Source: a virus | Length of the DNA stretch: 61,473 nucleotides | Reading direction: 5' to 3' (one strand) | Virus record (IMG/VR): IMGVR_UViG_3300035534_000060 | Part shown: in pieces, positions 12,664-36,247 of the stretch | Numbering within the stretch: the stretch's first letter is position 1 | How the letters are laid out: each line of letters opens with the position of its first letter | Made by a program: the position numbers and the translations under genes | The notes under the pieces: model-generated | Databases searched by the model: none | What the model saw: the letters and a program-made list of their open reading frames with translations, nothing else | What the model was told of the DNA's origin: nothing

Positions 12664-13260
12664 TCACATTACCGCCATAAGATAACCCAAACCAGCACCA
12701 CATAAGAAGAATACAATCATAACCAATATGACCATTCTATTATCTTCACACTCATCGAGTTGTATCCTAAATTCACGATTCGCATCCTTTAGGCGGCTAA
12801 TTTCATTCTCATATGATTCTTTCTTATAGTCACAAAAGACCAATTCTCTCCTAAGACGATTATTAATATCCCGCTCTTTGTGCAAATCGTGCATCAACTT
12901 GTTATCACTCTGCTTTTCCTTCTCAATAGTTTCCCGCATAGTGCATTCAATGCCATGTACCTTATTCTCAAGTTCTTCAATCCGATCTTTTTTATTTTCA
13001 GCAGTGAAGTTTTTATACAAATCTTCCATTGCTTCATCTATAGTATCTCCAAATCCAGCCACAGACTCTTGCAGATTTTTGAAATCTGGCAACTTCACAC
13101 AAAAACTGTCACCATCTTTTTCAAGTTTCACATTTTTAAATCCATACTTTTCAACAAGGTCATCATCCAGTTCTATTATACCACAAACTATTCTCTCTAT
13201 CATATTATCCTCTCGATTAAATTTATCCAGTAAATCTTCCAATGCTTCCACCCTCCTCAT
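12664..13260 (-). CDS. HicB/UPF0150-like domain protein with coiled coil and C-terminal transmembrane anchor
   Basis: LEKDGDSFCVKLPDF...GDTIDEAMEDL resembles the HicB antitoxin fold motif; C-terminal MVILVMIVFFLCGAGLGYLMAVM. Confidence 0.4.
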   Translation of the reverse strand: MRRVEALEDLLDKFNREDNMIERIVCGIIELDDDLVEKYGFKNVKLEKDGDSFCVKLPDFKNLQESVAGFGDTIDEAMEDLYKNFTAENKKDRIEELENKVHGIECTMRETIEKEKQSDNKLMHDLHKERDINNRLRRELVFCDYKKESYENEISRLKDANREFRIQLDECEDNRMVILVMIVFFLCGAGLGYLMAVM

Positions 13261-15386: not shown

Positions 15387-15815
15387 ATGCCTCGTCTTAC
15401 GCTTCCAAGTGAAAGTTGTTGTTTTAGATTAGATTCAGACTACGGCTATCGGCAGCAGTTTCCGATGACGTTCAATGATGTTGGATTAAGTGATGATGGG
15501 TTTGAGACTGGAAGTGTGACTGCACCATTCTTTGAAGAACCTGTTTTCATGTATATTGAATATGATGATACTTATCTGGCTGAAGAATACCCGGATTCAC
15601 AAAGTATTGTGACATATACAGATGGTGAAATTACTATTGATTGTTCTGTAAATGTTATTAAGTGTGTGGATATTTACAGTAGGATACTTACTGCTCACGA
15701 AATTGCTGATAGAAATAATAATGTGACTTTCCAGTTTTTGAATGATGTGCCTACTCCTACACAGCAGAAATATTTGGATTGGCAGAATAGTAGAGTAATC
15801 GGGAGGTCACGATAA
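15387..15815 (+). CDS. Hypothetical protein
   Basis: 142-aa ORF. Confidence 0.4.
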   Translation: MPRLTLPSESCCFRLDSDYGYRQQFPMTFNDVGLSDDGFETGSVTAPFFEEPVFMYIEYDDTYLAEEYPDSQSIVTYTDGEITIDCSVNVIKCVDIYSRILTAHEIADRNNNVTFQFLNDVPTPTQQKYLDWQNSRVIGRSR

Positions 15816-17518
15816 TGACACGGACACTTGAAGAATTACGAGAATATCTTGTTGGCGAATGGCTCTTCGATAATGACTTCCTTGATACATCTGGAAATGG
15901 CAATCATGGTACTCCTACTGATATAGAATGGAAACCTACTGCAAGAGGACTGAAACCGTATTTTAATGGTAGTAGTTCTTATATTGATTGTCAAAACCAA
16001 TTAACAGAATCAAATAATATCACTGTTTCTGCATGGGTATATCCAAACATAAATGAAGATGGGGATAAAACGATATTGTCTCAATTTTCAGATGATATAT
16101 ACTCGGGTGCATATACACTTCGGTATAGAGCCAAAAAAAACGGTTATCACTTTTCAGTATGGACTGATGATATATATGTAGATGCTCCAATAGCATCTGG
16201 ATTTTTAAACGGTCAATGGATTCATTTTGTCGGTACTTATGATGGCTCATATATAAAATTATATCAAAATGGTGAATTAGTTGCATCTGATACACTTACT
16301 GGAAACATAAATTATGATGATGATGATGGTGATAGATTCGTGATTGGTGCTAGGGAATATAATTTCCCAGGTACTACTTGGGATGGTAACATTGGCGAAA
16401 TTGGTGTATATTCAACCGCACTCACCGATGATGAAGTCCTTGCACTCTACGAAAGCACCAAACATGCATATGGGGTTGTTCCAGCAGAACGTTCGTTTAC
16501 CCACCGATTACAACCGGAAGTCGATGCAAATACTGTCGCTGCTTTCGATATGAGTACCAAGAACAGCGATGGTACACTCATGGATTTGTCAGGAAATAGT
16601 AATCATGGTGATATACAGGGGGCTGTCAGAGCGGGTGGATATTTCACCGATGGGATGATGTCAGGTTATGGTAATCATAATATAATACAATTCAATCATA
16701 ATAATGATATTGATTTCAGTAAAGAATTATATTTAGAACTCATTATAACTATACCTGATTGGACAAAGGTTGGTAGTTACACACCTGTAATACAAAAGAC
16801 AAATGAACCAAATAATCTAAAAAATGGGTTTAATTTGCGTAAAAATTCTGATAATAATAAATTAACATTTTCGATTGGCAATAGTACAAACACTTCATAT
16901 GAACAAACCAATGTGTTATCTGAAAATAGAAAATATTTAATACAATGTTATTATGAATCAGGTGTTGGTGGAGAAATTTGGTGTGATGGGGAATATTTAA
17001 ATTCACTATCATCTATTGGAGATATTGATCTTAATACAGAACCTATAAACATTTTTAATCGTTCTGATAGGTTGAGCGATGGTCAATATATAATTCAATA
17101 TGCTAAAATAATGAATGTAGTACCAACTGATTCACAAATAAAATCCAGATTCAACTCACTTGCTAACTTACCGCTCTACACCTTCGATGCTTCCAAGTAT
17201 CCCACAAGTAGCGGTTGGACTGCAAATGTACCATACAGCAGCATGTCGATAAGTTCCGGTGAATTCTCATTCACTGATGATGGACAATTACAATGTGATA
17301 GTGCAGGTTCATTTTCACTTCGGAATTCCCATCCCTTCGATGCTGATGAATACATCAAATTGACAATCAATGGTGTCGAATATGCAGGTACAGGTAGTGT
17401 AACTGAAGGTACTGTCACTGTATCCCTGACACAAGGCAGCAATAAGATTAGTGTCAATATGGGTACTGGTGATGTAATAGACGGTATCGATATACAGTTC
17501 AGAGAACCTGTTGAGTAA
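15815..17518 (+). CDS. LamG/concanavalin-A-like lectin domain protein (putative receptor-binding protein)
   Basis: Two LamG-like units: SGNGNHGT...ITVSAWVYP...WIHFVGTYDG...KLYQNGELV...GEIGVYSTALTDDEV and a second GNSNHGD unit. Confidence 0.55.
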   Translation: MTRTLEELREYLVGEWLFDNDFLDTSGNGNHGTPTDIEWKPTARGLKPYFNGSSSYIDCQNQLTESNNITVSAWVYPNINEDGDKTILSQFSDDIYSGAYTLRYRAKKNGYHFSVWTDDIYVDAPIASGFLNGQWIHFVGTYDGSYIKLYQNGELVASDTLTGNINYDDDDGDRFVIGAREYNFPGTTWDGNIGEIGVYSTALTDDEVLALYESTKHAYGVVPAERSFTHRLQPEVDANTVAAFDMSTKNSDGTLMDLSGNSNHGDIQGAVRAGGYFTDGMMSGYGNHNIIQFNHNNDIDFSKELYLELIITIPDWTKVGSYTPVIQKTNEPNNLKNGFNLRKNSDNNKLTFSIGNSTNTSYEQTNVLSENRKYLIQCYYESGVGGEIWCDGEYLNSLSSIGDIDLNTEPINIFNRSDRLSDGQYIIQYAKIMNVVPTDSQIKSRFNSLANLPLYTFDASKYPTSSGWTANVPYSSMSISSGEFSFTDDGQLQCDSAGSFSLRNSHPFDADEYIKLTINGVEYAGTGSVTEGTVTVSLTQGSNKISVNMGTGDVIDGIDIQFREPVE

Positions 17519-23269: not shown

Positions 23270-24148
23270 ATGGCAGGACATCCACTTACTGAACAACAGT
23301 ACACAATGTATGATGACGTTGTAACAAACGTTATCAGGAAAAAGATTATAGGTCGTAATCTAATCGCTATTGCCCCGGGCTCTCCATTTGGAATCGGTGT
23401 ACAGCAGATTGATTACAACAAACTGAACGATATGTCTGAAGCTGCACTCAGTATGAAACTTACTGAGAATCAGGACAGTGTAGGATATACGAATTCCAAG
23501 ATCGACATTCCAATCATTCACAAGGAATTTGAAATTGACAGCCGTGACCTTGCATCCTCACGTAGGACTGGTCAGCCTTTGGACACATCTAATGCTGAGG
23601 CAGCCGCAGCCAAAGTTGCCGAACTTGAAGATGAACTTATCATAACTGGTAAGGGAGACTATAACGGGCTATACGATGGCGCTGGTAACGACTACAGTAC
23701 TACCATGGACTTTGGTACGGCAGGCAATGCAATCGCTGCTGTGAAGGGTGCTATGCAACTCCTCATGGCTGATAAAATCTACCCACCATACAACCTCGTA
23801 CTCAACGAAGAACAGTACAATGAGATTGTAGGGCCAAGGGCAACTACCTCTGACAAATCTGAACTTGATATTGTCCGTGAAATGATTAGAGGTGGTGCTG
23901 GTGACGGTACACCCGGTGAAGTAGGTGTTGGTGGTGGGAATGTATATGTTACCCCAACCATGACTGCTGGTACTGGACTGCTTTGTGCTACACCTGATAC
24001 TCAGTATGCTGATCTCGCAATCGCACAGGATGTAACCATGACCATGGAAACACTTGAGAAATCTGGAAATGTGTTTGGCCGTGTAATGGAAGCACTTGTG
24101 CCCCGTATCAGAAATGATGTGGCATTCTGTAAACTTTCCGACATTTAA
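23270..24148 (+). CDS. Major capsid protein, HK97-fold (encapsulin-like)
   Basis: N-terminal LTEQQYTMYDDVVTNVIRKKIIGRNL and IPIIHKEFEIDSRDL resemble encapsulin-like shell proteins; followed by strong terminator. Confidence 0.55.
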   Translation: MAGHPLTEQQYTMYDDVVTNVIRKKIIGRNLIAIAPGSPFGIGVQQIDYNKLNDMSEAALSMKLTENQDSVGYTNSKIDIPIIHKEFEIDSRDLASSRRTGQPLDTSNAEAAAAKVAELEDELIITGKGDYNGLYDGAGNDYSTTMDFGTAGNAIAAVKGAMQLLMADKIYPPYNLVLNEEQYNEIVGPRATTSDKSELDIVREMIRGGAGDGTPGEVGVGGGNVYVTPTMTAGTGLLCATPDTQYADLAIAQDVTMTMETLEKSGNVFGRVMEALVPRIRNDVAFCKLSDI

Positions 24149-24149
24149 G

Positions 24150-24180
24150 TTGCCTGCAAAGGCAACCTTTTTATATTTTT
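24150..24180 (+). terminator. Hairpin plus T-tract terminator after capsid gene
   Basis: GTTGCC-TGCAAA-GGCAAC stem-loop then CTTTTTATATTTTT. Confidence 0.55.
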
Positions 24181-24221
24181 AAATCAATTTTAAATCAATC
24201 TATAGTCGGAGGTATAATCAA

Positions 24222-24596
24222 ATGGTTAAATTTTTGAAATGCGTAGTAACTGCCAAAAAAATTATGATCGAAGAGTTTGACAAAAAGACTGGTAAACCAG
24301 TTGTCGAAACTAAGACTGATATGTATGGCAATAAATATGAAGAGACTAAACAGAAGATTTATAGAAGGGGCGAAGAAGTATCTTTCCCAGAAAAGGTTGT
24401 AAAGAAACTTAAATCATCTGTTGAAATTGTGACTGCTCCGGTATTTGAACAGCCAGTAGCCGAAGAACCTGAAAAACCTAAAGAAGGCGAAATAAAGGAT
24501 AACGATAAAGGCGAAACTGTTGCTGATATGATACCAAAGGAAGAATCTAAAACAAAATCTACAACCAAGAAGTCCACTACATCTACGAAGAAGTGA
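24222..24596 (+). CDS. Lys/Glu-rich hypothetical protein
   Basis: 124-aa ORF ending in a low-complexity K/T/S tail. Confidence 0.4.
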   Translation: MVKFLKCVVTAKKIMIEEFDKKTGKPVVETKTDMYGNKYEETKQKIYRRGEEVSFPEKVVKKLKSSVEIVTAPVFEQPVAEEPEKPKEGEIKDNDKGETVADMIPKEESKTKSTTKKSTTSTKK

Positions 24597-24600
24597 TTAA

Positions 24601-25035
24601 ATGACTGTAACAGTAGCAGATATTCGTATTTATCCGCTCAATGACATCCCTGAATCTGATATGAGTGATAATGCTATTCAGGGTGCTATTGAGCAGGCTA
24701 CTGCATACATTTCTTATATTAAACGTAGTGATGTAACTGATTCTGAAACCGAATCAGCCATTCGTGCATTAGGAGGCTATCTTGCATATCTTGCATTTTT
24801 AGATAGACCTATTCAAGATGTTGCGGGCACAATGGCTGATGGCTATTTTACTCCCGCTACTGGAACTGAAGGGATACCACAAATTCGTTCTACATCCGAT
24901 GCTAGGGCAAAGGAAAGAGCACTTTATGAAACTGCTAAAACTTTTATAAATATGGTTTCTAAAGGAAATATGGAAAGTGGTAAACTTGAAAGCCAGTATA
25001 TTCCTTTTATTGGCCTGAGTTCTAGTAAAACTTAA
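24601..25035 (+). CDS. Head-tail connector (gp6-like) protein (putative)
   Basis: Position after capsid; N-terminal VTVADIR...AIQGAIEQATAYISYI pattern. Confidence 0.4.
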   Translation: MTVTVADIRIYPLNDIPESDMSDNAIQGAIEQATAYISYIKRSDVTDSETESAIRALGGYLAYLAFLDRPIQDVAGTMADGYFTPATGTEGIPQIRSTSDARAKERALYETAKTFINMVSKGNMESGKLESQYIPFIGLSSSKT

Positions 25036-25062
25036 ATAATATCAAGTCGTATATTACTTTGA

Positions 25063-25608
25063 GTGAAGGACTCACTCAAAATTTTATTCGCTCCCATCAA
25101 GAAGGACTTGATACACATGTATATGACAGAATCTCAGAAAAAGGCTATCTATGATATAATACCTAAGACTTTTACAATTAATTCTGAAACTGTTAGTGTA
25201 TCTTGTTTTTATGAAAATCAGATGATTCCTGATGGGCGTGACTCTGAACCTTTTTATAGTAATGCTACTTATCCATTGATTACATTAAAGTATGATGATA
25301 CTGATGAGTTCATTTTGGATATGGGTCAAGTAGTTATGAAAACGGCTAGATTAAATATTAATGTGTTTTCTACTAATATCGATAATCGGGGTAGTGGTGG
25401 AAATTATATTAATGGTAAGGTCGCATTAGATTACATGACTAGAAGTATTTTAGAAACTATAGAGAATTCGTATGAATCTCTTTATAGTTCTGGTATTTTC
25501 ATAAATGATAGAATAATGGGAACTAAAGTTATGGATTTATCAACAATTGCTACTAGAAAACATGTATATAGAAACAAATTTAGACTTAATATAACCTATG
25601 AGGTGTAA
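25063..25608 (+). CDS. Hypothetical structural protein
   Basis: 181-aa ORF in morphogenesis module. Confidence 0.4.
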   Translation: MKDSLKILFAPIKKDLIHMYMTESQKKAIYDIIPKTFTINSETVSVSCFYENQMIPDGRDSEPFYSNATYPLITLKYDDTDEFILDMGQVVMKTARLNINVFSTNIDNRGSGGNYINGKVALDYMTRSILETIENSYESLYSSGIFINDRIMGTKVMDLSTIATRKHVYRNKFRLNITYEV

Positions 25609-25611
25609 TAA

Positions 25612-26514
25612 ATGACTTACGATGGTTCAACAAAGAAAGTTGTAGAGTTTGTCGAAGAATCAAGTTTTGGTACTATTCCAGCCGACCCAACTTTCGAAAA
25701 TTTTGGTGCATATATAAACAATGCATCGGTAAAGAAAACTATGGTTCCGGTCAAGATTCCATATCTAAAGGATGATAGTGAGGCTGATAGATTACAATCT
25801 ACAAAAACTCAGAAAGTATCTGAAGCATTTGCTTCTACTATAACTATGAATCCTACAGATTGGTCAATTCTGCCATATATTCTTTGTGCCCCAGATTCTA
25901 CTACCTATGAAATAGGTGACAACATTTTTGATCTTGGATTAGGCATCATTGTTGATGACCAATATGAACTACTTGGTGGGGGATGTTGGAATAAATATGA
26001 ATGCACAATTGCTTCAGAATCAGTGGCAGAAGCAACACTAGAAGGAATGTATGCTAAATCTACGGGTATTAGTGGAACTGATTATGTAACAGGGACAGGT
26101 ACACATGCATCTACTCCATCAGGTGATGCTATCAAATTCGGCGATCTTTCAAGTGTGCAGTATGATTCTGCTGATACTACTACCAATGGTATAACAATTG
26201 ATAGTATAACATTTGGTGTTGAATATTCAACTAATCCAGTAAAGGATGTAGGTTCTTCACTTGAAAGTAATACTGCTGCTTGGTCATTTGGACAGCGTAA
26301 CATTAGTCTATCACTTAATATGACTCTAGATGATATGACTGTTGCTCCAGATATTCTCGATGGTGCAGGACATGACTTTGAATTTGCTGTAGGTGGAAAG
26401 ACTCTTGCATTCTCTAACATCTTTTGGGAAGGAGATTGGGATGAAGCACTTGACCCAGATGACCTTATAGCAATGCCGCTCAGTGCCACAAATGTGGATT
26501 TGACTATAACATAA
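25612..26514 (+). CDS. Putative major tail protein
   Basis: 300-aa ORF directly upstream of chaperone-like gene; positional. Confidence 0.3.
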   Translation: MTYDGSTKKVVEFVEESSFGTIPADPTFENFGAYINNASVKKTMVPVKIPYLKDDSEADRLQSTKTQKVSEAFASTITMNPTDWSILPYILCAPDSTTYEIGDNIFDLGLGIIVDDQYELLGGGCWNKYECTIASESVAEATLEGMYAKSTGISGTDYVTGTGTHASTPSGDAIKFGDLSSVQYDSADTTTNGITIDSITFGVEYSTNPVKDVGSSLESNTAAWSFGQRNISLSLNMTLDDMTVAPDILDGAGHDFEFAVGGKTLAFSNIFWEGDWDEALDPDDLIAMPLSATNVDLTIT

Positions 26515-26534
26515 AAAATTAATGGAGGATAATT

Positions 26535-26954
26535 ATGAAACCAATGAATATAAATGGATTCGAAATAACTTTTACCGAAAGACCTAAACATAAATCTGTG
26601 GTTGCAGCAAAAGGAATCATGACTACAGAACTTCTTAATATGATGGATTTGTCAGAAGTCGACCCAACCAAAGGTATATCCGATTTCCTAAAAGATAAAA
26701 TATCTGAAGACCCAGACATGATTGTCAAACTATCAAATCTTAAATCGGATTTGTCTATTGATCAGACAATTATTCTAGCTACAGGATTAGAATATAGTAC
26801 ACTTCAGGAAATTAAAGAAGATATGTATGCGGATGAATTTATTGATCTCTTTGAAAAATCCAAAGAATCTCTAGGAGGAAAAACGGCTGAAGATTTTTTC
26901 GCTATCTATCCTACAAGTATGACCTCAAAGGAAGAGGGGCTTCTGGGACTTTAA
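26535..26954 (+). CDS. Tail assembly chaperone (G-like)
   Basis: Acidic 139-aa ORF with downstream -1 frame extension and slippery heptamer. Confidence 0.5.
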   Translation: MKPMNINGFEITFTERPKHKSVVAAKGIMTTELLNMMDLSEVDPTKGISDFLKDKISEDPDMIVKLSNLKSDLSIDQTIILATGLEYSTLQEIKEDMYADEFIDLFEKSKESLGGKTAEDFFAIYPTSMTSKEEGLLGL

Positions 26955-27190
26955 GTGACAATGATGGACTGACAATAAGCAATTTATGCCCTTCAGCAAA
27001 GGATTTTGTAAAAAGTATAAATTTAGCAATCGGTGGCAAACAGGTTACAGATAGTCGAATTGGCGAATATACTTTTTGCAAAAATCAAAAAATATCTAAG
27101 CCAGAGATGGATAGAATGGATGAAGAAGATGTATTAGCGTTTAGTTGGGTCATGCGAAGAGAGTCGAAGTATAATAATAATGATGGGTGA
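26891..27190 (+). other. -1 frame extension (T-like) of the tail assembly chaperone; slippery heptamer TTTTTTC at 26894-26900
   Basis: -1 frame is open for 100 codons without a plausible start; T TTT TTC fits X XXY YYZ in the zero frame. Confidence 0.45.
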
Positions 27191-28089
27191 ATAAAATGGG
27201 TATGTTTATAGGAGATGTATGGATTCCATATGTCTCTAATTTTAATGTTGATAATGGTGATCGCAAAGTAGAGATAGTTAGACATATTGACCATACAGTG
27301 CCTCCACATTTTGCAGAATTTCCCAACCCGATAACTTCGGCTGAAATTTCAGGCACAGTCATCAGAACATCTAATTCTCCAAAATCTGCTAATGATTACG
27401 CAGACGATATTGAATCTTTAACAGGCAAAGAATCTGCTTTCAATTATATTCATAATTATCAAAATAATAGCGGATGGCTTTCTATAACAAGAGTATCTGT
27501 TCCAAATGATGCAGATATGCCTTTATCAAGAGATTATTCTATTTCTGGATATTTTTTATCAAATAAAAAATATAAGCCAAGACTTACTACCAGTGCCAGT
27601 GTTATGACTAATGATTATAGTATAACTTTAGGTATAGATGGTGCTGATAATTATATCCCACTACCAATTGGCGCATCTTATAGTACATCCCTTACAACTA
27701 TTTCACGTTCTGCTTTAGATGGCACTATGACACTTGTTAAAAGTAATGATAATAGTGCAGTAGAATTTGATATAGATAGTGTAGAAAGTGATGTAGGTGA
27801 ATGCAAGATTTATGATACTATGACCCAAGGGGAAACAGATGAAACTTTGTGGGAACGTGTGTATAATACTACACACTCGTTTGATGGTGATGTTGTAATA
27901 GAAAACGGTATAATAAGAGCAAAATTTATTGAAAATTCAAATTATCCTGAATTTTCTTATTGGAATAATGATATTTCTGATTGGGTTACAATATCCAAAA
28001 ATTATAATATCTCTACATATGTGGGATGGGATTTTGATAATGTGTGGATTTCAGGGAATGATGACGAATATCCAAAGTTGCGTAATTAA
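27187..28089 (+). CDS. Tail or fibre-associated protein with C-terminal WDFDNVW...YPKL motif
   Basis: GTG start; C-terminal motif shared with 28355..31219 and the continuation at 37781. Confidence 0.45.
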   Translation: MNKMGMFIGDVWIPYVSNFNVDNGDRKVEIVRHIDHTVPPHFAEFPNPITSAEISGTVIRTSNSPKSANDYADDIESLTGKESAFNYIHNYQNNSGWLSITRVSVPNDADMPLSRDYSISGYFLSNKKYKPRLTTSASVMTNDYSITLGIDGADNYIPLPIGASYSTSLTTISRSALDGTMTLVKSNDNSAVEFDIDSVESDVGECKIYDTMTQGETDETLWERVYNTTHSFDGDVVIENGIIRAKFIENSNYPEFSYWNNDISDWVTISKNYNISTYVGWDFDNVWISGNDDEYPKLRN

Positions 28090-28100
28090 ATGGTGATAAT

Positions 28101-28355
28101 ATGACAATTGAAGACGAAATTTATGAGATTGATAATAACCCTACCAAAGTAGTGAATGATAAAATTGATGAATTAATTTTAGCATGTTCAAAAATTCCTA
28201 ATAGTGCTCCTAAAAAATCTGGTAATAAAACTATGTATCAGCATTTACAAGACATGAAAAGGCATCTTGAGACTGACCCTACTGATTGGCTTGCAGACGA
28301 GAAAGCAAGGTTAGAACAGGCATTGATTGATAGAGATAATGAGGTGCTTGTATAA
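28101..28355 (+). CDS. Hypothetical protein
   Basis: 84-aa ORF. Confidence 0.4.
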   Translation: MTIEDEIYEIDNNPTKVVNDKIDELILACSKIPNSAPKKSGNKTMYQHLQDMKRHLETDPTDWLADEKARLEQALIDRDNEVLV

Positions 28356-31219
28356 TGGTAGCAATTGAGATAAGTACATTAGCAGAACTTGATGCAGTTC
28401 GGAATGACCTTACTGCTGATTATGTGCTTGTGAATGATATAGATGCTTCTGATACAAGTACATGGAATAGTGGTGCAGGATTTGAGCCGATGGGCAATTT
28501 CACAGGAACATTCGATGGAAACGGACACACAATCTCAAATCTTTATATTAATAGATCAATAGAAAACTCATCTGGGTTATTTAGAGTAGTAGAAGGAACA
28601 CTATCAAACACACAAATAATCGGTGCAAATATTACTCGTGGAAAGTATGTCGGGATTCTTGCAGGTACAGTAAGAAGTGGTGGACAGGTATATCAATGTT
28701 CATCATCTGGAACTATCGGTGGCAGTCGTATTGGTGGTTTGATAGGCTATGTTTTGAATGGTTCAATTGTACGTAATTGTTCATCGAGTGCTACTGTTAT
28801 AGGAACTGGTGATTATGTAGGTGGACTTATTGGTTGGTTAGACTATCCCAATACAATTCTTGAAAATTGTTATTCAGTTGGCGAAGTATCACATACAGGT
28901 ACACCCGATTTTATAGGTGGATTAATAGGTCATACTCGTGATAACCCAATTATTATAAATTCCTACTATGATACAGAAACCTCTGGACAATCTGATACGG
29001 GTAAAGGAGAACCACGTACAACAGCAGAAATGCAGACTCAGGAAACCTTTGCTGATTGGGATTTTGATACAGTTTGGACAATGGATGGTTATCCAGCACT
29101 AAGAGTATTCTATCCAGATTTGGAGACAGATGACGAAGGTGTAATAGAGATAGGTACATTGTCTGAACTCAATGCAATCAGATATGATTTGACTGCAAGT
29201 TACAAACTTACTGCCGACATTGACGCAAGTATAACACAGGAATGGAATCTGTATGCAATGGTAGACAAAGTCAATGATGCTACCGAATGGGATTCAGGCA
29301 CAAAGACAAATACCATAGTTAATGCAGAAGATAACTTGACATTAGATACAGGACAGACATCAGGTACATGGTTACAGAAATGGAATCTTACAGACATTAG
29401 GGATTTAGCAAACAGTAAAATAAGTTTTGATGCTATCACACCTACAGATACTTCCGTAACTGTTGAAGCAGGATTAGGTGACGAAACAACCGAACCAGCA
29501 AGTTATACAGCCGTTACTTCCGGTGACAGTATTCCCGGAACTGCCGTTAATGACGACTTGAGTGCAAATTATCTGTACATTAAGGTATCATTGGGTACAA
29601 CTGGTGCAGAGATGCCGGAAGTCATACAGGTATATACAGAAGTATATAGTAACGAATACGCAGGATTTGACCCAATTTATATTTTCACAGGAACATTCGA
29701 TGGAAACGGACACACAATCTCAAATTTGTATATTAATAGACCAACAGAAGACTGGGTTGGGTTATTTAAAAGACTACGTGGAACTCTACAGAACGTAACA
29801 ATGACTGGACTAGATATTACAGCATTATCACGAGTAGGAATGGTGGGGGAAACTATCGCACAAGGATTAATAAAAAATTGTCATGTATCCGGCACAATTA
29901 CTGGATTACAAAGATATTCTGGGTTAATTTCAGGTGCTGTAAATGATAGTATAGTGGAACAATGTAGTAGTACCGGAAGTGTGAGTGGTAATAGTTCGGG
30001 TTTTACTGGTGGCGGATTAATAGGATATATGTTGGATGGTGCTGTTTTAAAAAATTCGCATTCAGATGCAGACGTTACCATGACAGATAGGGCAGGGGGT
30101 GCAGTCGGACTGGTGGAAAGAGTAGATACAACAATTCAAAATTGTTACTCTATAGGTACTGTATCTGCATCAAGTGACGTAGGTGGGTTGGTCGGACGCT
30201 TTGATGGATTAGGAACAATATCAAACTCCTATTATGATACAGAAACCTCTGGACAATCTGATACGGGTAAAGGAGAACCACGTACAACAGCAGAATTGAA
30301 ACAAAGTTACCCTATAAGTAAACCTATTATAGAATCTTTTGATTTAGATAAGATTATAGTAAGAAATAATAATCTATATGATGCTGTGTTGACTATGAAA
30401 CGGGGTAACCCACTTATAAAGAATGATTATTCAGGAGTCAATAATTTATATAGTAGTATTAATAGTCGATTTAAATACATACCTGATAATACTACACCAT
30501 TTATAGATAGCCAAATGGATGGTACAGGAAATATTTCACAAACTTTCGATAATGATAATTATGCTATTTACATCGGTGGTAATGAGACTACAGGCATAAG
30601 GTTATCTGTTTCACCTAAACAATTGACAGTCACATCTAATTTAGATGACAATGTATTATATTCCGAAGATTATAATACTACTGACACAACAGTATTTTCT
30701 GGCGGTATAGCACTCGATAATTCCAACATTTATATTGAATGTGAGGATATGACTACTGCTAATGGTGCATCATTATATTCTGGTAGTGATGCTAGCGGTG
30801 GCAGTGCTGTTAAATTCGATGCGCAGGATGAAATGTGTTACAATTATTTTGGTTTAGGTACTGATTTACCATTGGGTACATATAAATTAGTAGTTAGGGC
30901 TAAACAGGATAGTGCTGTGACTGATGACCTTACTATGAATATTAGGAATAAAACTGAAGCAAGTATTTTTGCTACAGAAAATAAAACTTTATCATTGGGA
31001 TGGGAATATTATATATTTGATGTTACATTTACAGAAGCAGTTGAAGGTGACGTATTAAGCCTTGAACTTCTTAAAAATACTACAACTTCAAATAACATTT
31101 ATGTTGACTATGTGGTGTGGTTACCAATTTCATCTCCAAATAAGAATTTCCCAAAAGATTTGGCACATCAAGCATTAGTCGAATCTAATTCATCCAGAGA
31201 ATTAATTGGGAGATTATAA
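28355..31219 (+). CDS. GLUG-motif repeat protein (putative tail fibre or adhesin) with internal module duplication
   Basis: Repeated GGLIG/GLFG units; two copies of FTGTFDGNGHTISNLYINR and SYYDTETSGQSDTGKGEPRTTAE with long identical nucleotide stretches. Confidence 0.6.
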   Translation: MVAIEISTLAELDAVRNDLTADYVLVNDIDASDTSTWNSGAGFEPMGNFTGTFDGNGHTISNLYINRSIENSSGLFRVVEGTLSNTQIIGANITRGKYVGILAGTVRSGGQVYQCSSSGTIGGSRIGGLIGYVLNGSIVRNCSSSATVIGTGDYVGGLIGWLDYPNTILENCYSVGEVSHTGTPDFIGGLIGHTRDNPIIINSYYDTETSGQSDTGKGEPRTTAEMQTQETFADWDFDTVWTMDGYPALRVFYPDLETDDEGVIEIGTLSELNAIRYDLTASYKLTADIDASITQEWNLYAMVDKVNDATEWDSGTKTNTIVNAEDNLTLDTGQTSGTWLQKWNLTDIRDLANSKISFDAITPTDTSVTVEAGLGDETTEPASYTAVTSGDSIPGTAVNDDLSANYLYIKVSLGTTGAEMPEVIQVYTEVYSNEYAGFDPIYIFTGTFDGNGHTISNLYINRPTEDWVGLFKRLRGTLQNVTMTGLDITALSRVGMVGETIAQGLIKNCHVSGTITGLQRYSGLISGAVNDSIVEQCSSTGSVSGNSSGFTGGGLIGYMLDGAVLKNSHSDADVTMTDRAGGAVGLVERVDTTIQNCYSIGTVSASSDVGGLVGRFDGLGTISNSYYDTETSGQSDTGKGEPRTTAELKQSYPISKPIIESFDLDKIIVRNNNLYDAVLTMKRGNPLIKNDYSGVNNLYSSINSRFKYIPDNTTPFIDSQMDGTGNISQTFDNDNYAIYIGGNETTGIRLSVSPKQLTVTSNLDDNVLYSEDYNTTDTTVFSGGIALDNSNIYIECEDMTTANGASLYSGSDASGGSAVKFDAQDEMCYNYFGLGTDLPLGTYKLVVRAKQDSAVTDDLTMNIRNKTEASIFATENKTLSLGWEYYIFDVTFTEAVEGDVLSLELLKNTTTSNNIYVDYVVWLPISSPNKNFPKDLAHQALVESNSSRELIGRL

Positions 31220-31221
31220 TC

Positions 31222-34092
31222 ATGGTTGGCGAAGATGCAGTAATTAAAATTGGTGCTGATATTAAAAGAGCCATTGCGGGTATAGCAGCAGTTGAGGCTG
31301 GTTTAACTACTTTAAGTGCTAAAGTTATGACAACTGCTGCTGCTGTAAGGCGTGGAAGTATGTTAATGGTGGGTGCATTTGCTACGGTAGGCTCTGCGGC
31401 TGCTGGTGTTGCTACTCTAGGGCTTGCAACATCTATAAAAACATTTCAAGAATATGAGCAAGAGGTAGCCAATGCTGCATCTGTCACAGGGACTATGGGT
31501 CAAGCTTTTGAAGATACCAAAGGTAACATTGTAGAAATTTCAAAAACGCTAGGTGCAACAACTGTATTCTCTGCTCAAGAGGCTGCTAGTGCTCTTTATG
31601 ATGTTGCGTCTATGGGTTATAATGTAACTGATATGGCGGCTGATGACCTTGAACCAATTCTTAATCTCGCTGCTGCCACACAGGAAGATTTGACTCGAAC
31701 AACAGAACATGTAACTGCCTCATTGGGCCAGTTTAGTTTAGAAATGAGTGATAGTTTAAGAGTTGCCAATGTATTTGCCGCAACTATTAGTAATTCTAAA
31801 GCAACTCTTGAAAAGATTGGTCTTTCGATGAAATACACTGGTACTATCGCTGACCAGTTTGGAGAAGATATAGAAACTGTATCTGCTGCTCTTGGTATCA
31901 TGTATAATAATGGTCTTCGTGGAGAACAGGCAGGCCGTTCTCTTCGTATGTCATTGGGTCGTCTCTCTGCCCCTACCAGAAAATCTAGAGATGTTATTGA
32001 GGAAATGGGGCTTACTGTTGGCGATTTAAATCCTGAATTAAATTCGATGACAGAAATTTTCCATAATTTAGCAGATGCCAATATTACAACAACTCAAGCA
32101 ATGGTTCTGTTTGGTAAAGAAGCAGCCCCGGGTATGATGGCAGTATTAAAGAGCATCCCTAAATTTGAAGAACTCGAAGAAAAGATAAGAGATTCTGGCG
32201 GCGCTGCTAAGGATATGGCAGAAAAGCAACTAGATACTTTACATGGTTCTTCAATTCTATTAAAATCTGCTATTGAAAATCTTAAAATTGAAATAGGAGA
32301 AAAATTTGAACCAACTTTAATAGATGTAAATATGTATCTTAGGGATATAGTTTTGACTATCAGTGATAAACTAGACCCTACATTTGCAAAAATGAACAAT
32401 GCATTGAATTATTTAATACCATCATATAAATCTTTAATATCTATCATCGGTAGTTTAAAGGGTATATTTAACGATATATTAGATATACTTCCTGATGGTG
32501 TCTCTTCATTTAGAGGATTTGCTAATAGTATAAATACTGTAACTGATGCTATGGCAGGATTTTTTGGATGGATAGATCAGCATCCAGAATTTACCAAATT
32601 CGTAGCAGTAATAATGTCTGCTGTAACAGCGTTCTCATTTTTAATTGCGGCCATAAATCCCGTTATAATGGCATTGGGTGCTTTATTAATAGCGGGAAAA
32701 TATTTTGAAGATGAGTGGGGTAGTATAAATGATAAGATAATGTCTATAACTGATAAGGTAATGGAACACATTATTGAACAATATCACAATTTAATTCCTA
32801 CTTTATTGGAAATAAGAGATGTTATCAAAGATGAAGTCATACCCTATATGATCGATTTATTTGAACAGGTAAAGCCTGCCATAGGTGATTTGATAAGCAG
32901 TATTGGGCCAGTATTAAATAAAATCAAAAATATAATTTCAGATTTGTATCCAAGTTTTGATAATCTAAAAACTATTATCGGGAGTATAGTTGGTATATTT
33001 ACAGATGTTATAGATGTATTTTCAAGTGGTGAAATAAAATCGCAAGCATTTACAGATGCTATAAATAAAACTACTGAAATAGTAGCAGAGTTTTTAAAAT
33101 TTATAGATGAACATCCAGAAATAACTAAATTCGTTGCAGTAATTGCATCTGCTGCTGCCATATTTACAACCCTTGCACCATTGATAAATCCAGTCACAGT
33201 AGCGATAGGCGCATTAGTGCTTGCAGGTAAATATGTAATGGAAAATTGGGAAGAGATTAACTCTACTATTACACCATTAGTTTCCGAAATAACTGAATTT
33301 TTAATATCCCAATTTGATAAAATAACTGAATGGTGGGATGAGAATGGAACTCTCATTATGGAAGCCGTAACAGTTATTTTTGATCATATGTGGGACAACA
33401 TGCAAAGACTTATAGGCATATTTGAATGGGTATGGCCTTATGCCGAGGAGATTATATCTAGCAGTATAAATATAATACTAGATACAATTAAACTTGCAGC
33501 ACAAATCATCACTGGTGATTGGAAAGGAGCATTTGACACTTTAATAGATATAGGTGAAAATGCTTCAAATATAATGAAACAATCTATTAAAGTGTTTGCT
33601 GATAAAATCATTGAGATATTTGTCCATATCAAAGATAGAATTATAGAAAATCTGACCCAAGCAGCAAATGATGCTAAAGAGTGGGGTGAAAATCTTATAG
33701 ATAATTTCATCGATGGAATTAAATCCAAATACAACGATTTAAAAACTAGTGTTGCTGATGCAGCATCCATTGTGAGTGATTATATAGGTTTCCAAAGCCC
33801 TACTGAAGAAGGCCCGGGTAGATATGTAATGGATTGGGGGCCAAATCTAGTTGAATCATTTGCTGATGGCATATATGACAGTATGGATATGATTAATGGG
33901 GCATTTAAAAATATGTCTGACCCTGCCGTATTAAATAAAGATAAAGGTGGCAATGGTAGTGGTTATACAAGTCAAGATGTCTATAATATCATTGTTAAGG
34001 AAAATGTTGTCAGAGATGATGCAGATATAGATAAAATTATTTCTGGCGTAGAATTCAGTATTGCTAAAAAGAGTAGGGATGTGAGACTTTAA
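31222..34092 (+). CDS. Tail tape measure protein
   Basis: 956 aa; Ala/Gly-rich N-terminus, LRGEQAGRSLR motif, duplicated hydrophobic hairpin segments. Confidence 0.75.
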   Translation: MVGEDAVIKIGADIKRAIAGIAAVEAGLTTLSAKVMTTAAAVRRGSMLMVGAFATVGSAAAGVATLGLATSIKTFQEYEQEVANAASVTGTMGQAFEDTKGNIVEISKTLGATTVFSAQEAASALYDVASMGYNVTDMAADDLEPILNLAAATQEDLTRTTEHVTASLGQFSLEMSDSLRVANVFAATISNSKATLEKIGLSMKYTGTIADQFGEDIETVSAALGIMYNNGLRGEQAGRSLRMSLGRLSAPTRKSRDVIEEMGLTVGDLNPELNSMTEIFHNLADANITTTQAMVLFGKEAAPGMMAVLKSIPKFEELEEKIRDSGGAAKDMAEKQLDTLHGSSILLKSAIENLKIEIGEKFEPTLIDVNMYLRDIVLTISDKLDPTFAKMNNALNYLIPSYKSLISIIGSLKGIFNDILDILPDGVSSFRGFANSINTVTDAMAGFFGWIDQHPEFTKFVAVIMSAVTAFSFLIAAINPVIMALGALLIAGKYFEDEWGSINDKIMSITDKVMEHIIEQYHNLIPTLLEIRDVIKDEVIPYMIDLFEQVKPAIGDLISSIGPVLNKIKNIISDLYPSFDNLKTIIGSIVGIFTDVIDVFSSGEIKSQAFTDAINKTTEIVAEFLKFIDEHPEITKFVAVIASAAAIFTTLAPLINPVTVAIGALVLAGKYVMENWEEINSTITPLVSEITEFLISQFDKITEWWDENGTLIMEAVTVIFDHMWDNMQRLIGIFEWVWPYAEEIISSSINIILDTIKLAAQIITGDWKGAFDTLIDIGENASNIMKQSIKVFADKIIEIFVHIKDRIIENLTQAANDAKEWGENLIDNFIDGIKSKYNDLKTSVADAASIVSDYIGFQSPTEEGPGRYVMDWGPNLVESFADGIYDSMDMINGAFKNMSDPAVLNKDKGGNGSGYTSQDVYNIIVKENVVRDDADIDKIISGVEFSIAKKSRDVRL

Positions 34093-35732
34093 TGCATTAT
34101 CAAGCATATTTGGGCACAGAAAAATTAGGGCTAGTTGATATAACATTCTCAAAAGAATTAAATCAGGTAACACAATTTAATGCTGTGTTTTCTAATACAG
34201 TTCAAAATAGAAATATAATTAGTGATAATATTGACAGTATTCTTTATATTTATAGGAATGATATAAAAATATTTGAAGGAAAAATAAATTATGGTAAAAT
34301 ACGCTATAATATAACCACTATAGAGATAGATGGTTATTCTAAATATATTGAACTTCATTATCAATTTTTTAGCAGAGACCAAGACCAATACGATATAAGA
34401 AGAGTCCAATTCGATAATATTGCTGCTAATACTATTTTAGGATATGTTCTAGATGGTACTAGTTATACTATTGCAGAATGCCCATCCACTCTTATTTCTT
34501 TAAGAGGGGAATATGAAACAAAACTACAATGGATTTCTGCAATAGCAAAGGCATGTAAATATACTGTTAATGAAAAGACATATTCTAATGATTTCTGGAT
34601 TGACATCTCTGATGGTGTTCATATTGCACAACAGAGAGGTAGTGATAAAGGAGTATTGAATTTTACTGAAGAGGTCGAGAGAGAAATAGATTATAGCGAG
34701 ATTCAGAACACTGCATATGGGCTAGGTTATGGTGATGGGATAAATCAAACATCATCCATAAAAACAAATGCAGATAGTGTTACTACTTATGGTGAAAGAG
34801 AAATAGTAGTAATAGATAGAAAGTTTCAGGAACAAACAGCATTAGATGATGAGATGCAAGAATATGCTGATGCTCATGCTGAACCTATCGAAGAAATCCC
34901 ATGCAAAATATCTACATGGGAATGGTATAATCTAGATTTAGAAATTGGTGACAGTGTAACACTTTACAATGAAAACACAGGTATAAATGGTTCTTATAGA
35001 ATTAAAAAATCCACTATTGGAACAATCTACACAACTTTAGATATAACTAATACAATACCTAGGTTATCAACAGAACTTCAAAATATTCGCAGAGATTTAA
35101 AAGTCAATGGTGGTTATATGCAAGGGCAAACAGTGCCCTTGAATTTCTCCAATATGGATAATGTGCAAAATGGCTTCCCATTGAAAATGAATATAGCCAT
35201 ACCCGCAAAAACCAAGGCAATAAATGCTTTCTATATCAGTTTCGATTTAGAAAGATACAGAGCATTTGTTGCTACGACCAGTGGAGAATCTAGCCACAAT
35301 CATAATGTTACTATACCCGGGCATGAACACAATCTGACTATATTTACTCCATGGGATGATACCAATAATGTGTATTTAATGGGGACTACAATTAAAGGAA
35401 GTGGACAATTAGAAGCGTTTGGTGGCGCTGGTGGTACTGCAACGAGTACTAAAGATGAAGATATAGTAGCATCTGCTTCAGGTAGTTTTCACGATCATGA
35501 GGCTGAGTTTGGTATAATGGAGGATTCTGATAATAGTCCTTCCATATCTATTGAAATCGATAGTGTAGATAAAACTGCTGAACTCGGTGGCCCTTGGACA
35601 ACTGATCAATTAGAAATAGATATAACCCCACATATCCAAACAACTGGTAAACATGTTATACAATTATTAAGTGATCAACCTGCAAGGCTTCAGGCTAATG
35701 TTTGGGGTCAAGTATTTATACAATCTGACTAA
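34092..35732 (+). CDS. Tail tip or baseplate protein (putative)
   Basis: 546-aa ORF immediately after tape measure gene; positional. Confidence 0.35.
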   Translation: MHYQAYLGTEKLGLVDITFSKELNQVTQFNAVFSNTVQNRNIISDNIDSILYIYRNDIKIFEGKINYGKIRYNITTIEIDGYSKYIELHYQFFSRDQDQYDIRRVQFDNIAANTILGYVLDGTSYTIAECPSTLISLRGEYETKLQWISAIAKACKYTVNEKTYSNDFWIDISDGVHIAQQRGSDKGVLNFTEEVEREIDYSEIQNTAYGLGYGDGINQTSSIKTNADSVTTYGEREIVVIDRKFQEQTALDDEMQEYADAHAEPIEEIPCKISTWEWYNLDLEIGDSVTLYNENTGINGSYRIKKSTIGTIYTTLDITNTIPRLSTELQNIRRDLKVNGGYMQGQTVPLNFSNMDNVQNGFPLKMNIAIPAKTKAINAFYISFDLERYRAFVATTSGESSHNHNVTIPGHEHNLTIFTPWDDTNNVYLMGTTIKGSGQLEAFGGAGGTATSTKDEDIVASASGSFHDHEAEFGIMEDSDNSPSISIEIDSVDKTAELGGPWTTDQLEIDITPHIQTTGKHVIQLLSDQPARLQANVWGQVFIQSD

Positions 35733-35752
35733 TATATGAGGTAGGTGATTAA

Positions 35753-36244
35753 ATGACGGATATAGTATTTCCAGATGGTTCAACATTACAAGATATATAT
35801 GATGCTATAAATAGCGGTAGTGGCGGTGTCACTGTTTGTACTTCTACTACTAAACCTACATCACCGTCAGAAGGTGATCTAATTTATGTCACAGATAATG
35901 CGGCAGGTAAAGAACTTGAACATTATGATGGGTCATCATGGCAAACAGTAAATGACAAAACGATCACCACGACGCTCGACATGGATGGGTATGACATTGA
36001 CAATATCGACATAGCAATGTTTGGTACAGGTGCTACCTACGGTAAGATTACTTGGAGTGATACAGACGAAAGGTTCCACGTCCTCGAACACCTCGACGGT
36101 GGTGCAGATAATCCATATTGGGGCGACATCGAAGTCAATAAGATATATTTCGGTCACGACAACTGTAGCATAGATAAGGACACCAACAACAACTTGGTGC
36201 TGACTGTTCCGACCGATGGATCGATCATTCTCAGGACGGTGTGA
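35753..36244 (+). CDS. Hypothetical tail protein
   Basis: 163-aa ORF; same frame as the next two ORFs. Confidence 0.4.
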   Translation: MTDIVFPDGSTLQDIYDAINSGSGGVTVCTSTTKPTSPSEGDLIYVTDNAAGKELEHYDGSSWQTVNDKTITTTLDMDGYDIDNIDIAMFGTGATYGKITWSDTDERFHVLEHLDGGADNPYWGDIEVNKIYFGHDNCSIDKDTNNNLVLTVPTDGSIILRTV

Positions 36245-36247
36245 TCG

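What the first reader, a model, noticed from the sequence alone, without database searches (positions are those of the whole stretch)
27187..31219. Repeat-built GLUG-motif protein inserted between chaperone and tape measure genes, with near-identical internal nucleotide repeats
The 954-aa protein is built from GLUG-type Gly-rich units and contains an internal duplication with long identical nucleotide stretches (28497-28560 vs 29686-29750; 28961-29040 vs 30229-30300). A C-terminal W-D-F-D-x-V-W...Y-P-x-L motif is shared with 27187..28089 and with the fibre continuation at 37781. Identical internal repeats are recombination substrates and may enable module shuffling for host-range variation. 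The gene position between chaperone and tape measure is atypical.
Basis: seen in the sequence. Interest (0 to 1): 0.5.

Follow-up and report, generated by a model that had tools for sequence, protein, structure and literature searches.

The report
Adhesin cassette splitting a viral tail-tip gene
In a probable archaeal tailed virus, a 2.3-kb cassette with two GLUG beta-helix adhesion modules sits inside a conserved tail-tip gene and splits it; near-identical relatives lack the cassette or carry a different module core, so this is ordinary host-range mosaicism in an unusually clean and odd form.

Summary
The 954-aa protein has two GLUG beta-helix modules (residues 1-252 and 263-651). They are 55% aa / 62% nt identical overall but share two exact nucleotide runs: 43 nt (28498-28540 = 29683-29725) and 63 nt (28967-29029 = 30233-30295).

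Only residues 1-651 are GLUG. Residues 652-954, together with ORF 27196-28089, are the two halves of one conserved ~590-aa protein. That protein has an N-terminal tube/Dit-like fold and a C-terminal CBM-like jelly roll. In every relative examined it lies as one gene between a frameshifting tail chaperone and the tape measure gene.

Contigs 96-99% identical to the window carry the unsplit gene. The window has 2460 nt (27928-30387) where they have 200 nt. The cassette holds a GLUG cap plus stop, an 84-codon gene under purifying selection, and the two modules.

Three independent contigs carry a module-2-type core in module 1, and a fourth carries a third core type. The swap boundaries fall at the repeat islands. 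The repeats are therefore real recombination edges, not assembly artefacts.

The "atypical position" belongs to the host gene and is conserved in the lineage. I rate this a new variant of a known kind, of moderate interest.

The parts
26535..26954 (+). Tail assembly chaperone (G-like), 139 aa. It carries a -1 slippery heptamer T_TTT_TTC at 26894-26900.
   Evidence: It lies after a tube-like 300-aa gene (phrog_290; Phage_tube_2 on the L007 homologue). The heptamer sits in the zero frame, with FF conserved in relatives.
26897..27190 (+). T-like extension in the -1 frame, about 98 codons, ending at TGA 27188-27190. This fills the apparent gap before the next gene.
   Evidence: The -1 frame is open here, and its peptide (…RIGEYTFCKN…EMDEMDEEDVLAFSW.MRRESK) is conserved in L002, L009 and L006.
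27196..28089 (+). N-terminal half of the split tail-tip gene (297 aa): tube/Dit-like fold plus a second beta domain. It ends in a foreign 25-residue GLUG cap.
27928..30387 (+). Segment that differs from near-identical genomes carrying the unsplit gene: 2460 nt here against 200 nt there.
   Evidence: L010-L013 align at 96-98.7% up to 27927 and again from 30388. The L002 alignment also breaks at 27932 and 30451.
28012..30307 (+). The inserted cassette at protein level (2296 nt), lying between '…SKNYNI' and 'YPISKP…'.
   Evidence: Junctions were mapped against the L002 and P0002 proteins.
28012..28089 (+). GLUG-module C-terminal cap (STYVGWDFDNVWISGNDDEYPKLRN) followed by a TAA stop.
   Evidence: It aligns with the module 1 cap ETFADWDFDTVWTMDGYPALRVF. 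It is 100% identical in the ten related contigs that cover this segment (all carry the split allele).
28101..28355 (+). ORF84, a small gene whose stop overlaps the ATG of the GLUG gene by 1 nt. Its function is unknown.
   Evidence: A 73%-identical homologue precedes a GLUG gene in a different context (L025). dN/dS is 0.14. There is no Pfam hit.
28355..29110 (+). GLUG module 1 (residues 1-252), complete with cap. Its central core (~28560-28956) is the swappable part.
   Evidence: Pfam hits. The module profile matches the IgA1 protease NTD beta-helix. Core variants are seen in L020, L024, L032 and L025.
29141..30307 (+). GLUG module 2 (residues 263-651). It has a ~135-aa inserted domain (~29240-29650) and no WDFD cap.
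   Evidence: Module alignment. It ends …GEPRTTAELKQS and is followed directly by the ancestral YPIS….
28498..28540 (+). Island 1: an exact 43-nt repeat, with its copy at 29683-29725.
   Evidence: The left crossover of the L032 variant lies inside it.
28967..29029 (+). Island 2: an exact 63-nt repeat, with its copy at 30233-30295.
   Evidence: The right crossover of L020 was mapped base by base inside it; the L024 and L032 alignments switch across the same island. Homology to L025 resumes at 29018.
30308..31219 (+). C-terminal half of the split gene, now fused behind the GLUG modules: middle domain, CBM-like jelly roll (~30750-31145) and a conserved C-terminal helix.
   Evidence: It is 70% identical to residues 274-595 of the L002 protein. 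Foldseek of the family model hits CBM4 and other jelly rolls. Bases 30833-31132 are 98-100% identical to L002, against ~65% in the flanks.
31222..34092 (+). Tape measure protein (956 aa).
   Evidence: PF10145 at 1e-36 and many TMP PHROGs.
34092..35732 (+). Tal-like tail-tip protein (546 aa). It follows the tape measure gene directly, with no Dit gene in between.
   Evidence: PF06605 Prophage_tail is recorded on the identical protein in L010 and L027. Sipho_Gp37 is a weak hit.
35958..38201 (+). A second variable slot. It holds a distantly related GLUG fibre gene (36248-37780), an in-frame TAG (37778-37780) and its continuation to 38173.
   Evidence: Relatives L005, L002 and L010 lose homology exactly between 35958 and 38201. 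GC is 0.456 against 0.358 for the whole window. GLUG Pfam hit. Only 28-34% aa identical to the 954-aa protein.

Best explanation
The region is a lineage-specific tail-tip adhesin gene interrupted by a portable adhesin cassette.

- Unsplit form. In relatives, one ~590-aa protein is encoded between the frameshifting tail chaperone and the tape measure gene. Its N-terminal ~125 residues have the tail-tube/distal-tail-protein (Dit) fold and presumably form a ring at the tail tip. Its C-terminal part carries a carbohydrate-binding-type jelly roll and a conserved terminal helix.
- Split form. In this virus, recombination has placed a 2.3-kb cassette exactly at the boundary between the anchor half and the arm half. 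The cassette consists of the last 25 residues of a GLUG module plus a stop codon, an 84-codon gene translationally coupled to what follows, and two GLUG beta-helix modules.
- Result. There are now three polypeptides: a 297-aa Dit-like anchor ending in a GLUG cap, the 84-aa protein, and a 954-aa adhesin (GLUG x2 + ancestral middle domain + CBM).
- Function (inferred). The GLUG beta-helices add or change surface-binding specificity.
- Repeat islands. The two near-identical islands are the conserved edges of a replaceable central core. Homologous recombination at these edges swaps cores between modules and between viruses.

Shown: the anatomy, the homology of the two halves, the fold assignments at model level, the presence/absence polymorphism, and the core swaps at the islands.
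Inferred: virion location, binding function, host-range effect, and how the 954-aa protein stays attached to the tail. I favour attachment through the ancestral middle domain and C-terminal helix.
For: - Two halves, one gene: ORF 27196-28089 matches residues 1-273 of the L002 protein (63% identity), and residues 652-954 of the 954-aa protein match residues 274-595 of the same protein (70%), with adjoining junctions.
- The unsplit form is the norm: 14 full-length family members of 582-614 aa, at 28-96% identity, cover 99-100% of the query.
- The slot is conserved: the gene lies between chaperone and tape measure in L002, L006, L007/8 (two paralogues), L009 and L010-13.
- The chaperone is real: a slippery T_TTT_TTC and a conserved -1 extension.
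- No Dit gene lies between the tape measure and the Tal-like gene.
- Polymorphism: L010-13 are 96-98.7% identical in the flanks but carry the unsplit gene. The split allele's ORF84 is on at least 23 contigs, and the exact 954-aa protein is on 6 contigs.
- Core swaps at the islands: L020, L024 and L032. The two module copies within L020 differ from each other, so the swap is not assembler mis-threading. L025 has a third core type and places ORF84 + GLUG gene behind a different, fibre-like gene.
- ORF84 has dN/dS 0.14.
- Host domain: TerL is closest to viruses of Methanofastidiosa and haloarchaea, and family homologues occur in archaeal MAGs.
Against: - No direct evidence shows that either polypeptide is in the virion or binds anything.
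- The AF2 models are of moderate quality (pLDDT 67-70, pTM 0.4). The Dit call rests on about 125 aligned residues with high rmsd.
- The gene is upstream of the tape measure, unlike every characterised Dit, so it could be another tube-fold paralogue.
- Separating the anchor from the arm might have made the 954-aa protein a free or non-functional product. The split allele's spread (many samples, intact ORFs) argues against decay but does not prove function.
- No close donor of the cassette was found; the best GLUG hits are 38-48% identical over part of the length.
- The direction of the core swaps (which core is ancestral) is not resolved.
Confidence: 0.7

Rival explanations
1. Plug-and-socket docking. 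The cassette boundaries are a circular permutation of one GLUG module. The anchor protein ends with a module cap (WDFD…YPKL), and module 2 of the adhesin lacks exactly that cap. The cap would complement the cap-less beta-helix in trans and so re-attach the adhesin to the Dit-like ring non-covalently.
For: - Joining the right end of the cassette (…GEPRTTAELKQS) to its left end (STYVGWDFDNVW…YPKLRN*) rebuilds a complete module colinear with module 1 (…GEPRTTAEMQTQ·ETFADWDFDTVW…YPALRVF).
- The cap is part of the folded unit in a solved homologue: profile positions 1-260 match 3N6Z residues 72-362.
- The cap segment is 100% identical in all ten split-allele contigs I could compare.
- Both ORFs are intact across many samples.
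Against: - No multimer modelling or experiment was possible.
- In 120 GLUG homologues, 107 caps were found, 14 at protein C-termini and none as a free N-terminal or isolated piece, so natural split modules were not seen.
- The coincidence of breakpoints could simply reflect selection for domain boundaries, or excision of a unit-length circle by recombination between island-2 copies.
- The cap could be a hitch-hiking remnant that only supplies a stop codon.
- Zero variation in the cap gives no information about selection.
Confidence: 0.12
2. The split is a tolerated disruption. The insertion inactivated the ancestral adhesin arm, the 954-aa product is not incorporated, and the virus relies on its other fibres.
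For: - The anchor and arm are now separate polypeptides in three different reading frames.
- Close relatives do well with the unsplit gene.
- Short family members lacking the CBM exist (P0015, P0016, P0018, 386-387 aa; P0020, 449 aa, has a different insert there), so the arm is dispensable in some lineages.
Against: - All three ORFs are intact in many samples, with 1-2% background divergence.
- ORF84 and the conserved module parts show dN/dS of 0.14-0.26 against a diverged homologue.
- The CBM segment is 98-100% identical to that of a ~65%-identical relative, which indicates recent exchange and retention of this part.
- Cores are being swapped while the reading frame is kept.
Confidence: 0.12
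3. The repeats and variants are assembly artefacts: collapsed or mis-threaded repeats in short-read metagenome assemblies.
For: Four of the eight contigs shown (the Logan contigs L018, L019, L021, L022) stop 150 nt into the GLUG gene, at island 1, and L023 stops 129 nt in. So the repeats do confuse assemblers.
Against: - The same full-length gene was recovered on 6 contigs, four of them 50-200 kb, from several samples.
- The core-swapped form was recovered three times, in JGI samples 3300035039 and 3300035053 and in the Ga0209300 assembly, with different crossover points and private substitutions. The two module copies on one contig (L020) differ from each other.
Confidence: 0.04

Closest known systems
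[quoted passage not shown]
   Different: The gene lies upstream of the tape measure gene rather than between tape measure and Tal. The CBM is a C-terminal extension after a long middle domain, not an insertion in the galectin domain. The virus is probably archaeal. Here the gene is also physically split by a cassette. There is no sequence-level Dit family hit.
GLUG / Peptidase_M26_N beta-helix domain (PF07581, PF05342), as in the N-terminal domain of Streptococcus pneumoniae IgA1 protease (PDB 6XJA, 7UVL; PMC7695701) and 3N6Z
   Same: Pfam hits are above threshold. The module profile matches the solved beta-helix domains at 1e-13 to 1e-16. In the protease, that domain is the substrate-binding part.
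   Different: There is no protease domain. The modules sit in a viral tail gene in tandem, one with a 135-aa inserted domain and one without the C-terminal cap. The closest cellular or viral homologues are only 38-48% identical.
Mosaic tail-fibre and receptor-binding-protein genes of tailed phages, where modules are exchanged by recombination at conserved linker sequences (general knowledge of the field)
   Same: Conserved flanks surround variable cores. Closely related genomes differ by cassette. The CBM is exchanged between diverged relatives, and a second variable fibre slot lies at 35958-38201.
   Different: The exchange units here are nested: the whole cassette, the core of a module, and the CBM. 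One exchange has cut a structural gene into separate polypeptides with circularly permuted module boundaries.
Tail assembly chaperone G/GT with programmed -1 frameshift (phage lambda paradigm)
   Same: A slippery X_XXY_YYZ heptamer near the end of a ~140-aa ORF after the tube gene, with a conserved -1 extension.
   Different: The tape measure gene does not follow directly. The Dit-like adhesin gene is interposed in the whole lineage.

Membership tests
GLUG-motif beta-helix module (PF07581 / PF05342) | Pfam GLUG and Peptidase_M26_N hits above the gathering score | tested here: met
   GLUG scores 67.6 bits (cutoff 20.5) and M26_N 29.6 bits (cutoff 27.7) on the 954-aa protein. GLUG scores 28.8 bits on the fibre ORF.
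GLUG-motif beta-helix module (PF07581 / PF05342) | Homology to a solved beta-helix domain | tested here: met
   Profile A4 matches 7UVL, 7UVK, 6XJA and 3N6Z with E from 2.5e-16 to 9e-13. The beta-helix is described in PMC7695701. I did not model the viral modules themselves.
Distal tail protein (Dit) / evolved Dit | N-terminal tail-tube-like fold | tested here: met
Distal tail protein (Dit) / evolved Dit | Gene located between the tape measure and Tal genes | tested here: not met
   The gene is upstream of the tape measure gene in the window and in all relatives. The Tal-like gene follows the tape measure gene directly.
Distal tail protein (Dit) / evolved Dit | C-terminal galectin-like domain | tested here: inconclusive
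Distal tail protein (Dit) / evolved Dit | Carbohydrate-binding module as insertion or extension | tested here: met
   Foldseek of the family model hits CBM4 structures 4BJ0 and 1GUI (TM-score on target 0.57-0.58) and many CBM-bearing enzymes. No Pfam CBM hit.
Distal tail protein (Dit) / evolved Dit | Hexameric ring at the tail tip of the virion | not testable with these tools
   This needs cryo-EM or proteomics.
Tail assembly chaperone with -1 programmed frameshift | Slippery heptamer in frame and a conserved -1 extension | tested here: met
   T_TTT_TTC lies at 26894-26900. The -1 frame is open to 27190 and conserved in L002, L009 and L006.
Diversity-generating retroelement (template/variable repeat pair) | Repeat pair differing at adenines of the template | tested here: not met
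   The mismatch spectrum between the copies is not adenine-specific. I did not scan every ORF of the window for a reverse transcriptase.
Invertible shufflon / phase-variable fibre | Inverted repeats flanking the variable segment | tested here: not met
   Only direct repeats were found. The single inverted repeat is a 23-nt palindrome at 27330-27363.

The most novel reading that the evidence does not exclude
The cassette creates a split beta-helix docking system. A 25-residue GLUG cap left on the Dit-like ring protein would complement, in trans, the cap-less second GLUG module of the 954-aa adhesin. A viral tail hub could then accept exchangeable adhesins through fragment complementation rather than a covalent fusion. 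A related open point is the reproducible in-frame TAG, which sits at almost the same place in the module of the second GLUG fibre gene. It might be read through or decoded (for example as pyrrolysine in a methanogen host) instead of terminating.
Probability: 0.1. Interest if true: 0.75.

Novelty: new variant of a known kind. Interest (0 to 1): 0.45.

Why it matters
- Adhesion devices of archaeal tailed viruses are hardly characterised. This locus gives a concrete, testable picture of one: a Dit-like hub protein encoded before the tape measure gene and carrying a CBM arm.
- It also gives a natural series of alleles among near-identical genomes: unsplit, cassette-bearing, and three module cores. 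Such a series is well suited to linking sequence modules to host range, and to studying how recombination at short identical islands remodels receptor-binding proteins.
- The split with permuted module boundaries raises a specific structural question, cap complementation, that AlphaFold-Multimer or a pull-down experiment could settle.
- In practice, the 43-nt and 63-nt repeats break short-read assemblies at this gene. Fragmented contigs from this virus group should be read with that in mind.

Tried and rejected
- Known phages: no nucleotide match for 24000-40000, and only two weak protein matches for the 954-aa protein.
- Donor search: residues 1-651 gave 2537 GLUG proteins from bacteria and archaea, but none closer than 38-48% identity over part of the length, so no donor or host gene can be named.
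- Sequence searches against solved structures found nothing significant for the unsplit family profile (best E 0.39) or for the single 954-aa sequence. Only the module profile worked.
- Pfam on sub-segments (inserted domain of module 2, middle domain + CBM, ORF84, fibre continuation) gave nothing above threshold.
- Viral-contig search for the second GLUG fibre found no relative.
- The annotated Methanofastidiosa virus BK063668 (closest TerL) is almost wholly "hypothetical protein" and did not help to name the tail genes.
- Literature searches for the GLUG motif returned mostly unrelated uses of the word.
- Rejected readings: diversity-generating retroelement, because mismatches are not adenine-specific; an invertible segment, because there are no inverted repeats; general TAG recoding, because only one long ORF pair is joined by TAG; and a recent duplicate of the fibre GLUG module, because identity is only 28-34% aa.
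- The cassette's GC (0.382 against ~0.32 in the flanks) is too weak a signal to call it foreign, and Gly-rich repeats raise GC anyway.

Full report
**1. Checking the observation**

ORF 28355..31219 encodes 954 aa and hits Pfam GLUG (67.6 bits) and Peptidase_M26_N (29.6 bits), both above threshold. The repeat finder reports two direct-repeat families inside it:
- 28475-28635 vs 29660-29820, 76% identical;
- 28957-29032 vs 30223-30298, 96% identical.

At fixed offsets the exact runs are 43 nt (28498-28540 = 29683-29725) and 63 nt (28967-29029 = 30233-30295).

At protein level there are two modules. Module 1 is residues 1-252. Module 2 is residues 263-651 and carries a ~135-aa inserted domain between its head and its GLUG core. 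Over 223 aligned codons they are 55% aa and 62% nt identical. In the two islands 15/16 and 19/19 identical residues use the same codon, against roughly half elsewhere. The islands are therefore recent shared DNA and not only conserved protein.

The WDFDxVW…YPxL motif occurs three times:
- at the end of ORF 27187..28089;
- at the end of module 1, not at the end of the protein;
- after an in-frame TAG in the fibre gene 36248..38173.

Module 2 lacks the motif.

**2. What the gene really is**

A syntenic 60-kb viral contig (L002) has a single 595-aa gene between the chaperone-like gene and the tape measure gene.
- Its residues 1-273 align with ORF 27187..28089 at 63% identity.
- Its residues 274-595 align with residues 652-954 of the 954-aa protein at 70% identity.
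- The two alignments abut exactly.

A database search with that protein found 14 full-length relatives of 582-614 aa, down to 28% identity, all covering 99-100% of the query. Wherever context was available, the gene sits between a ~140-aa chaperone-like gene and the tape measure gene. In L007/8 there are two tandem paralogues. So the unsplit ~590-aa gene is the norm, and its position before the tape measure gene is a trait of this virus lineage.

The window carries an insertion of 2296 nt (28012-30307) at the boundary between the two halves. It consists of:
- a 25-residue GLUG cap plus a TAA stop;
- an 84-codon ORF whose stop overlaps the next ATG;
- the two GLUG modules.

**3. The flanking genes**

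- ORF 26535..26954 has a zero-frame slippery heptamer T_TTT_TTC at 26894-26900. The -1 frame stays open to TGA 27188-27190, and its peptide is conserved in three diverged relatives. This is a G/GT-type tail chaperone, and it fills the apparent gap before ATG 27196.
- ORF 31222..34092 is the tape measure protein (PF10145, 1e-36).
- The next gene (34092..35732) carries a Prophage_tail (Tal-type) hit on record.
- No Dit gene lies between the tape measure and Tal-like genes.

**4. Folds**

- A model of the unsplit protein (pLDDT 67, with the C-terminal domain above 80) hit CBM4 modules and other carbohydrate-binding jelly rolls.
- A profile of GLUG modules matched the beta-helix N-terminal domain of IgA1 metalloproteases and 3N6Z (E from 1e-13 to 1e-16). 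In the pneumococcal enzyme this beta-helix binds the substrate's Fab (PMC7695701).

The ancestral protein is best described as a Dit-like hub protein with a CBM arm, analogous to the "evolved Dit" proteins of lactic-acid-bacteria phages (PMC10688798, PMC6669499). It is encoded on the other side of the tape measure gene.

**5. Population evidence**

- *Unsplit allele.* Four ENA contigs (L010-L013) are 96-98.7% identical to the window up to 27927 and again from 30388. They carry the unsplit 594-aa gene: 200 nt where the window has 2460 nt.
- *Origin of the cassette.* The breakpoints lie ~80 nt outside the protein-level junctions, and those 80-nt pieces are diverged from both L010 and L002. The cassette therefore probably arrived by homologous recombination from a third lineage that already had the split.
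- *Split allele.* It is common. ORF84 (99% identical) is on at least 23 contigs, and the exact 954-aa protein is on 6 contigs. One of these is a 62-kb contig from another sample that is 99.99% identical over 8.9 kb. Several short-read contigs end ~150 nt into the GLUG gene, at island 1.
- *Core swaps.* Three independent contigs (L020, L024, L032) have the head and cap of module 1 but a module-2-type core. The right crossover of L020 was mapped base by base inside the 63-nt island, and the L024 and L032 alignments switch across the same island. The left crossover is inside the 43-nt island in L032 and just upstream of it in L020. On L020 the two module copies differ from each other, which rules out simple mis-threading.
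- *A different context.* Contig L025 carries an ORF84 homologue (73% identical, dN/dS 0.14) followed by a GLUG gene with the same head, cap, linker and module 2 head, but a third core type. There the pair follows a fibre-like 136-aa gene. ORF84 plus the GLUG gene is therefore a portable pair.
- *CBM exchange.* The CBM segment 30833-31132 is 98-100% identical between the window and L002, although their flanks are ~65% identical.

**6. Mechanism and rivals**

The best-supported reading is nested cassette exchange in a tail-tip adhesin. It operates at three levels: the whole GLUG cassette, the module core and the CBM. The repeat islands are the conserved edges where homologous recombination acts. 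How the 954-aa protein remains on the tail after the split is not shown.

- *Docking.* The cassette is a circular permutation of a module. Its right end (…TTAELKQS) joined to its left end (STYVGWDFD…YPKLRN*) rebuilds a complete module colinear with module 1. This allows a docking model in which the cap on the anchor complements the cap-less module 2. I give this about 0.1. In 120 homologues I found no free cap pieces, and nothing could be tested structurally.
- *Other explanations of the permuted boundaries.* Either selection for domain boundaries, or excision of a unit-length circle by recombination between island-2 copies in a donor.
- *Tolerated disruption.* Not excluded, but it fits poorly with intact ORFs, purifying selection and continuing in-frame swaps.
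- *Assembly artefact.* Excluded for practical purposes.

**7. Host**

- The large terminase is closest to viruses assigned to Methanofastidiosa and to haloarchaeal tailed viruses.
- Family homologues occur in two archaeal MAGs: Methanomicrobia JdFR-19 and Ca. Mnemosynella.
- A relative carries DUF2551, which I recall as a methanogen-associated domain (from memory, not checked here).
- The window encodes PolB, an AEP primase and an XPD-like helicase.

An archaeal host is likely but not proven.

**8. Verdict**

The "inserted between chaperone and tape measure" reading is replaced by [quoted passage not shown]. Mosaic receptor-binding genes are well known, so this is a new variant of a known kind. 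Two points go beyond the ordinary: the gene order, and the split with permuted module boundaries.

Noticed in passing
window 37778-37780 (within 36248-38173): An in-frame TAG sits inside a GLUG module of the fibre gene: …SAASG*GRTSTEIADPDNYTSDGWDLDDLW…, to be compared with …TGKGEPRTTAE…WDFDTVW. The identical 510-aa ORF with this stop is on 6 contigs from several samples. TAG ends only 2 of 59 ORFs tallied (a hand-picked set), and this is the only long ORF pair joined by TAG. It may be readthrough or decoding (Pyl?) or a fixed nonsense mutation. No tRNA is encoded in the window.
   Followed up: partly
window 35958-38201: A second variable slot. Relatives L005, L002 and L010 lose homology exactly here and carry other genes. 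GC is 0.456 against 0.358 for the whole window. The continuation after the TAG looks like the truncated start of a pectate-lyase-type beta-helix (Pel9A-like and DUF1565, both weak hits).
   Followed up: partly
window 30833-31132: The CBM-like segment is 98-100% identical to L002, whose neighbouring sequence is only ~65% identical. This points to recent lateral exchange of just this domain.
   Followed up: partly
window 26894-27190: The tail chaperone has a canonical -1 slippery site T_TTT_TTC and a conserved ~98-codon extension. The 230-nt 'intergenic gap' before the next gene is therefore coding.
   Followed up: yes
window 31222-34092: The tape measure protein is 956 aa, against 747 aa in L002. 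L002 residues 355-561 align to two places in the window protein (within the full-length 1-562 alignment, and again at 530-733). This suggests an internal ~190-aa duplication, which would lengthen the tail.
   Followed up: partly
L007/L008 6164-9809: A relative carries two tandem paralogues (610 and 602 aa) of the Dit-like adhesin gene before its tape measure gene.
   Followed up: no
L016 10001-13273 (Ca. Mnemosynella MAG) and L015 10001-11593 (Methanomicrobia MAG): Family homologues sit in archaeal genomes after a 294-aa and a 131-146-aa gene, a provirus-like arrangement. The L016 protein is 1090 aa, with weak lectin-like hits in its extension. No tape measure-sized ORF follows in L015.
   Followed up: no
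window 11778-12680: This is the other ORF ending in TAG (11820-12341). The same frame continues through two TAGs for a further ~110 codons and overlaps ORF 12352-12705 in another frame.
   Followed up: no
window 15815-17518: A 567-aa protein with a strong Laminin_G_3 / ConA-like lectin domain lies just upstream of the terminase gene. It may be another surface-binding protein.
   Followed up: no
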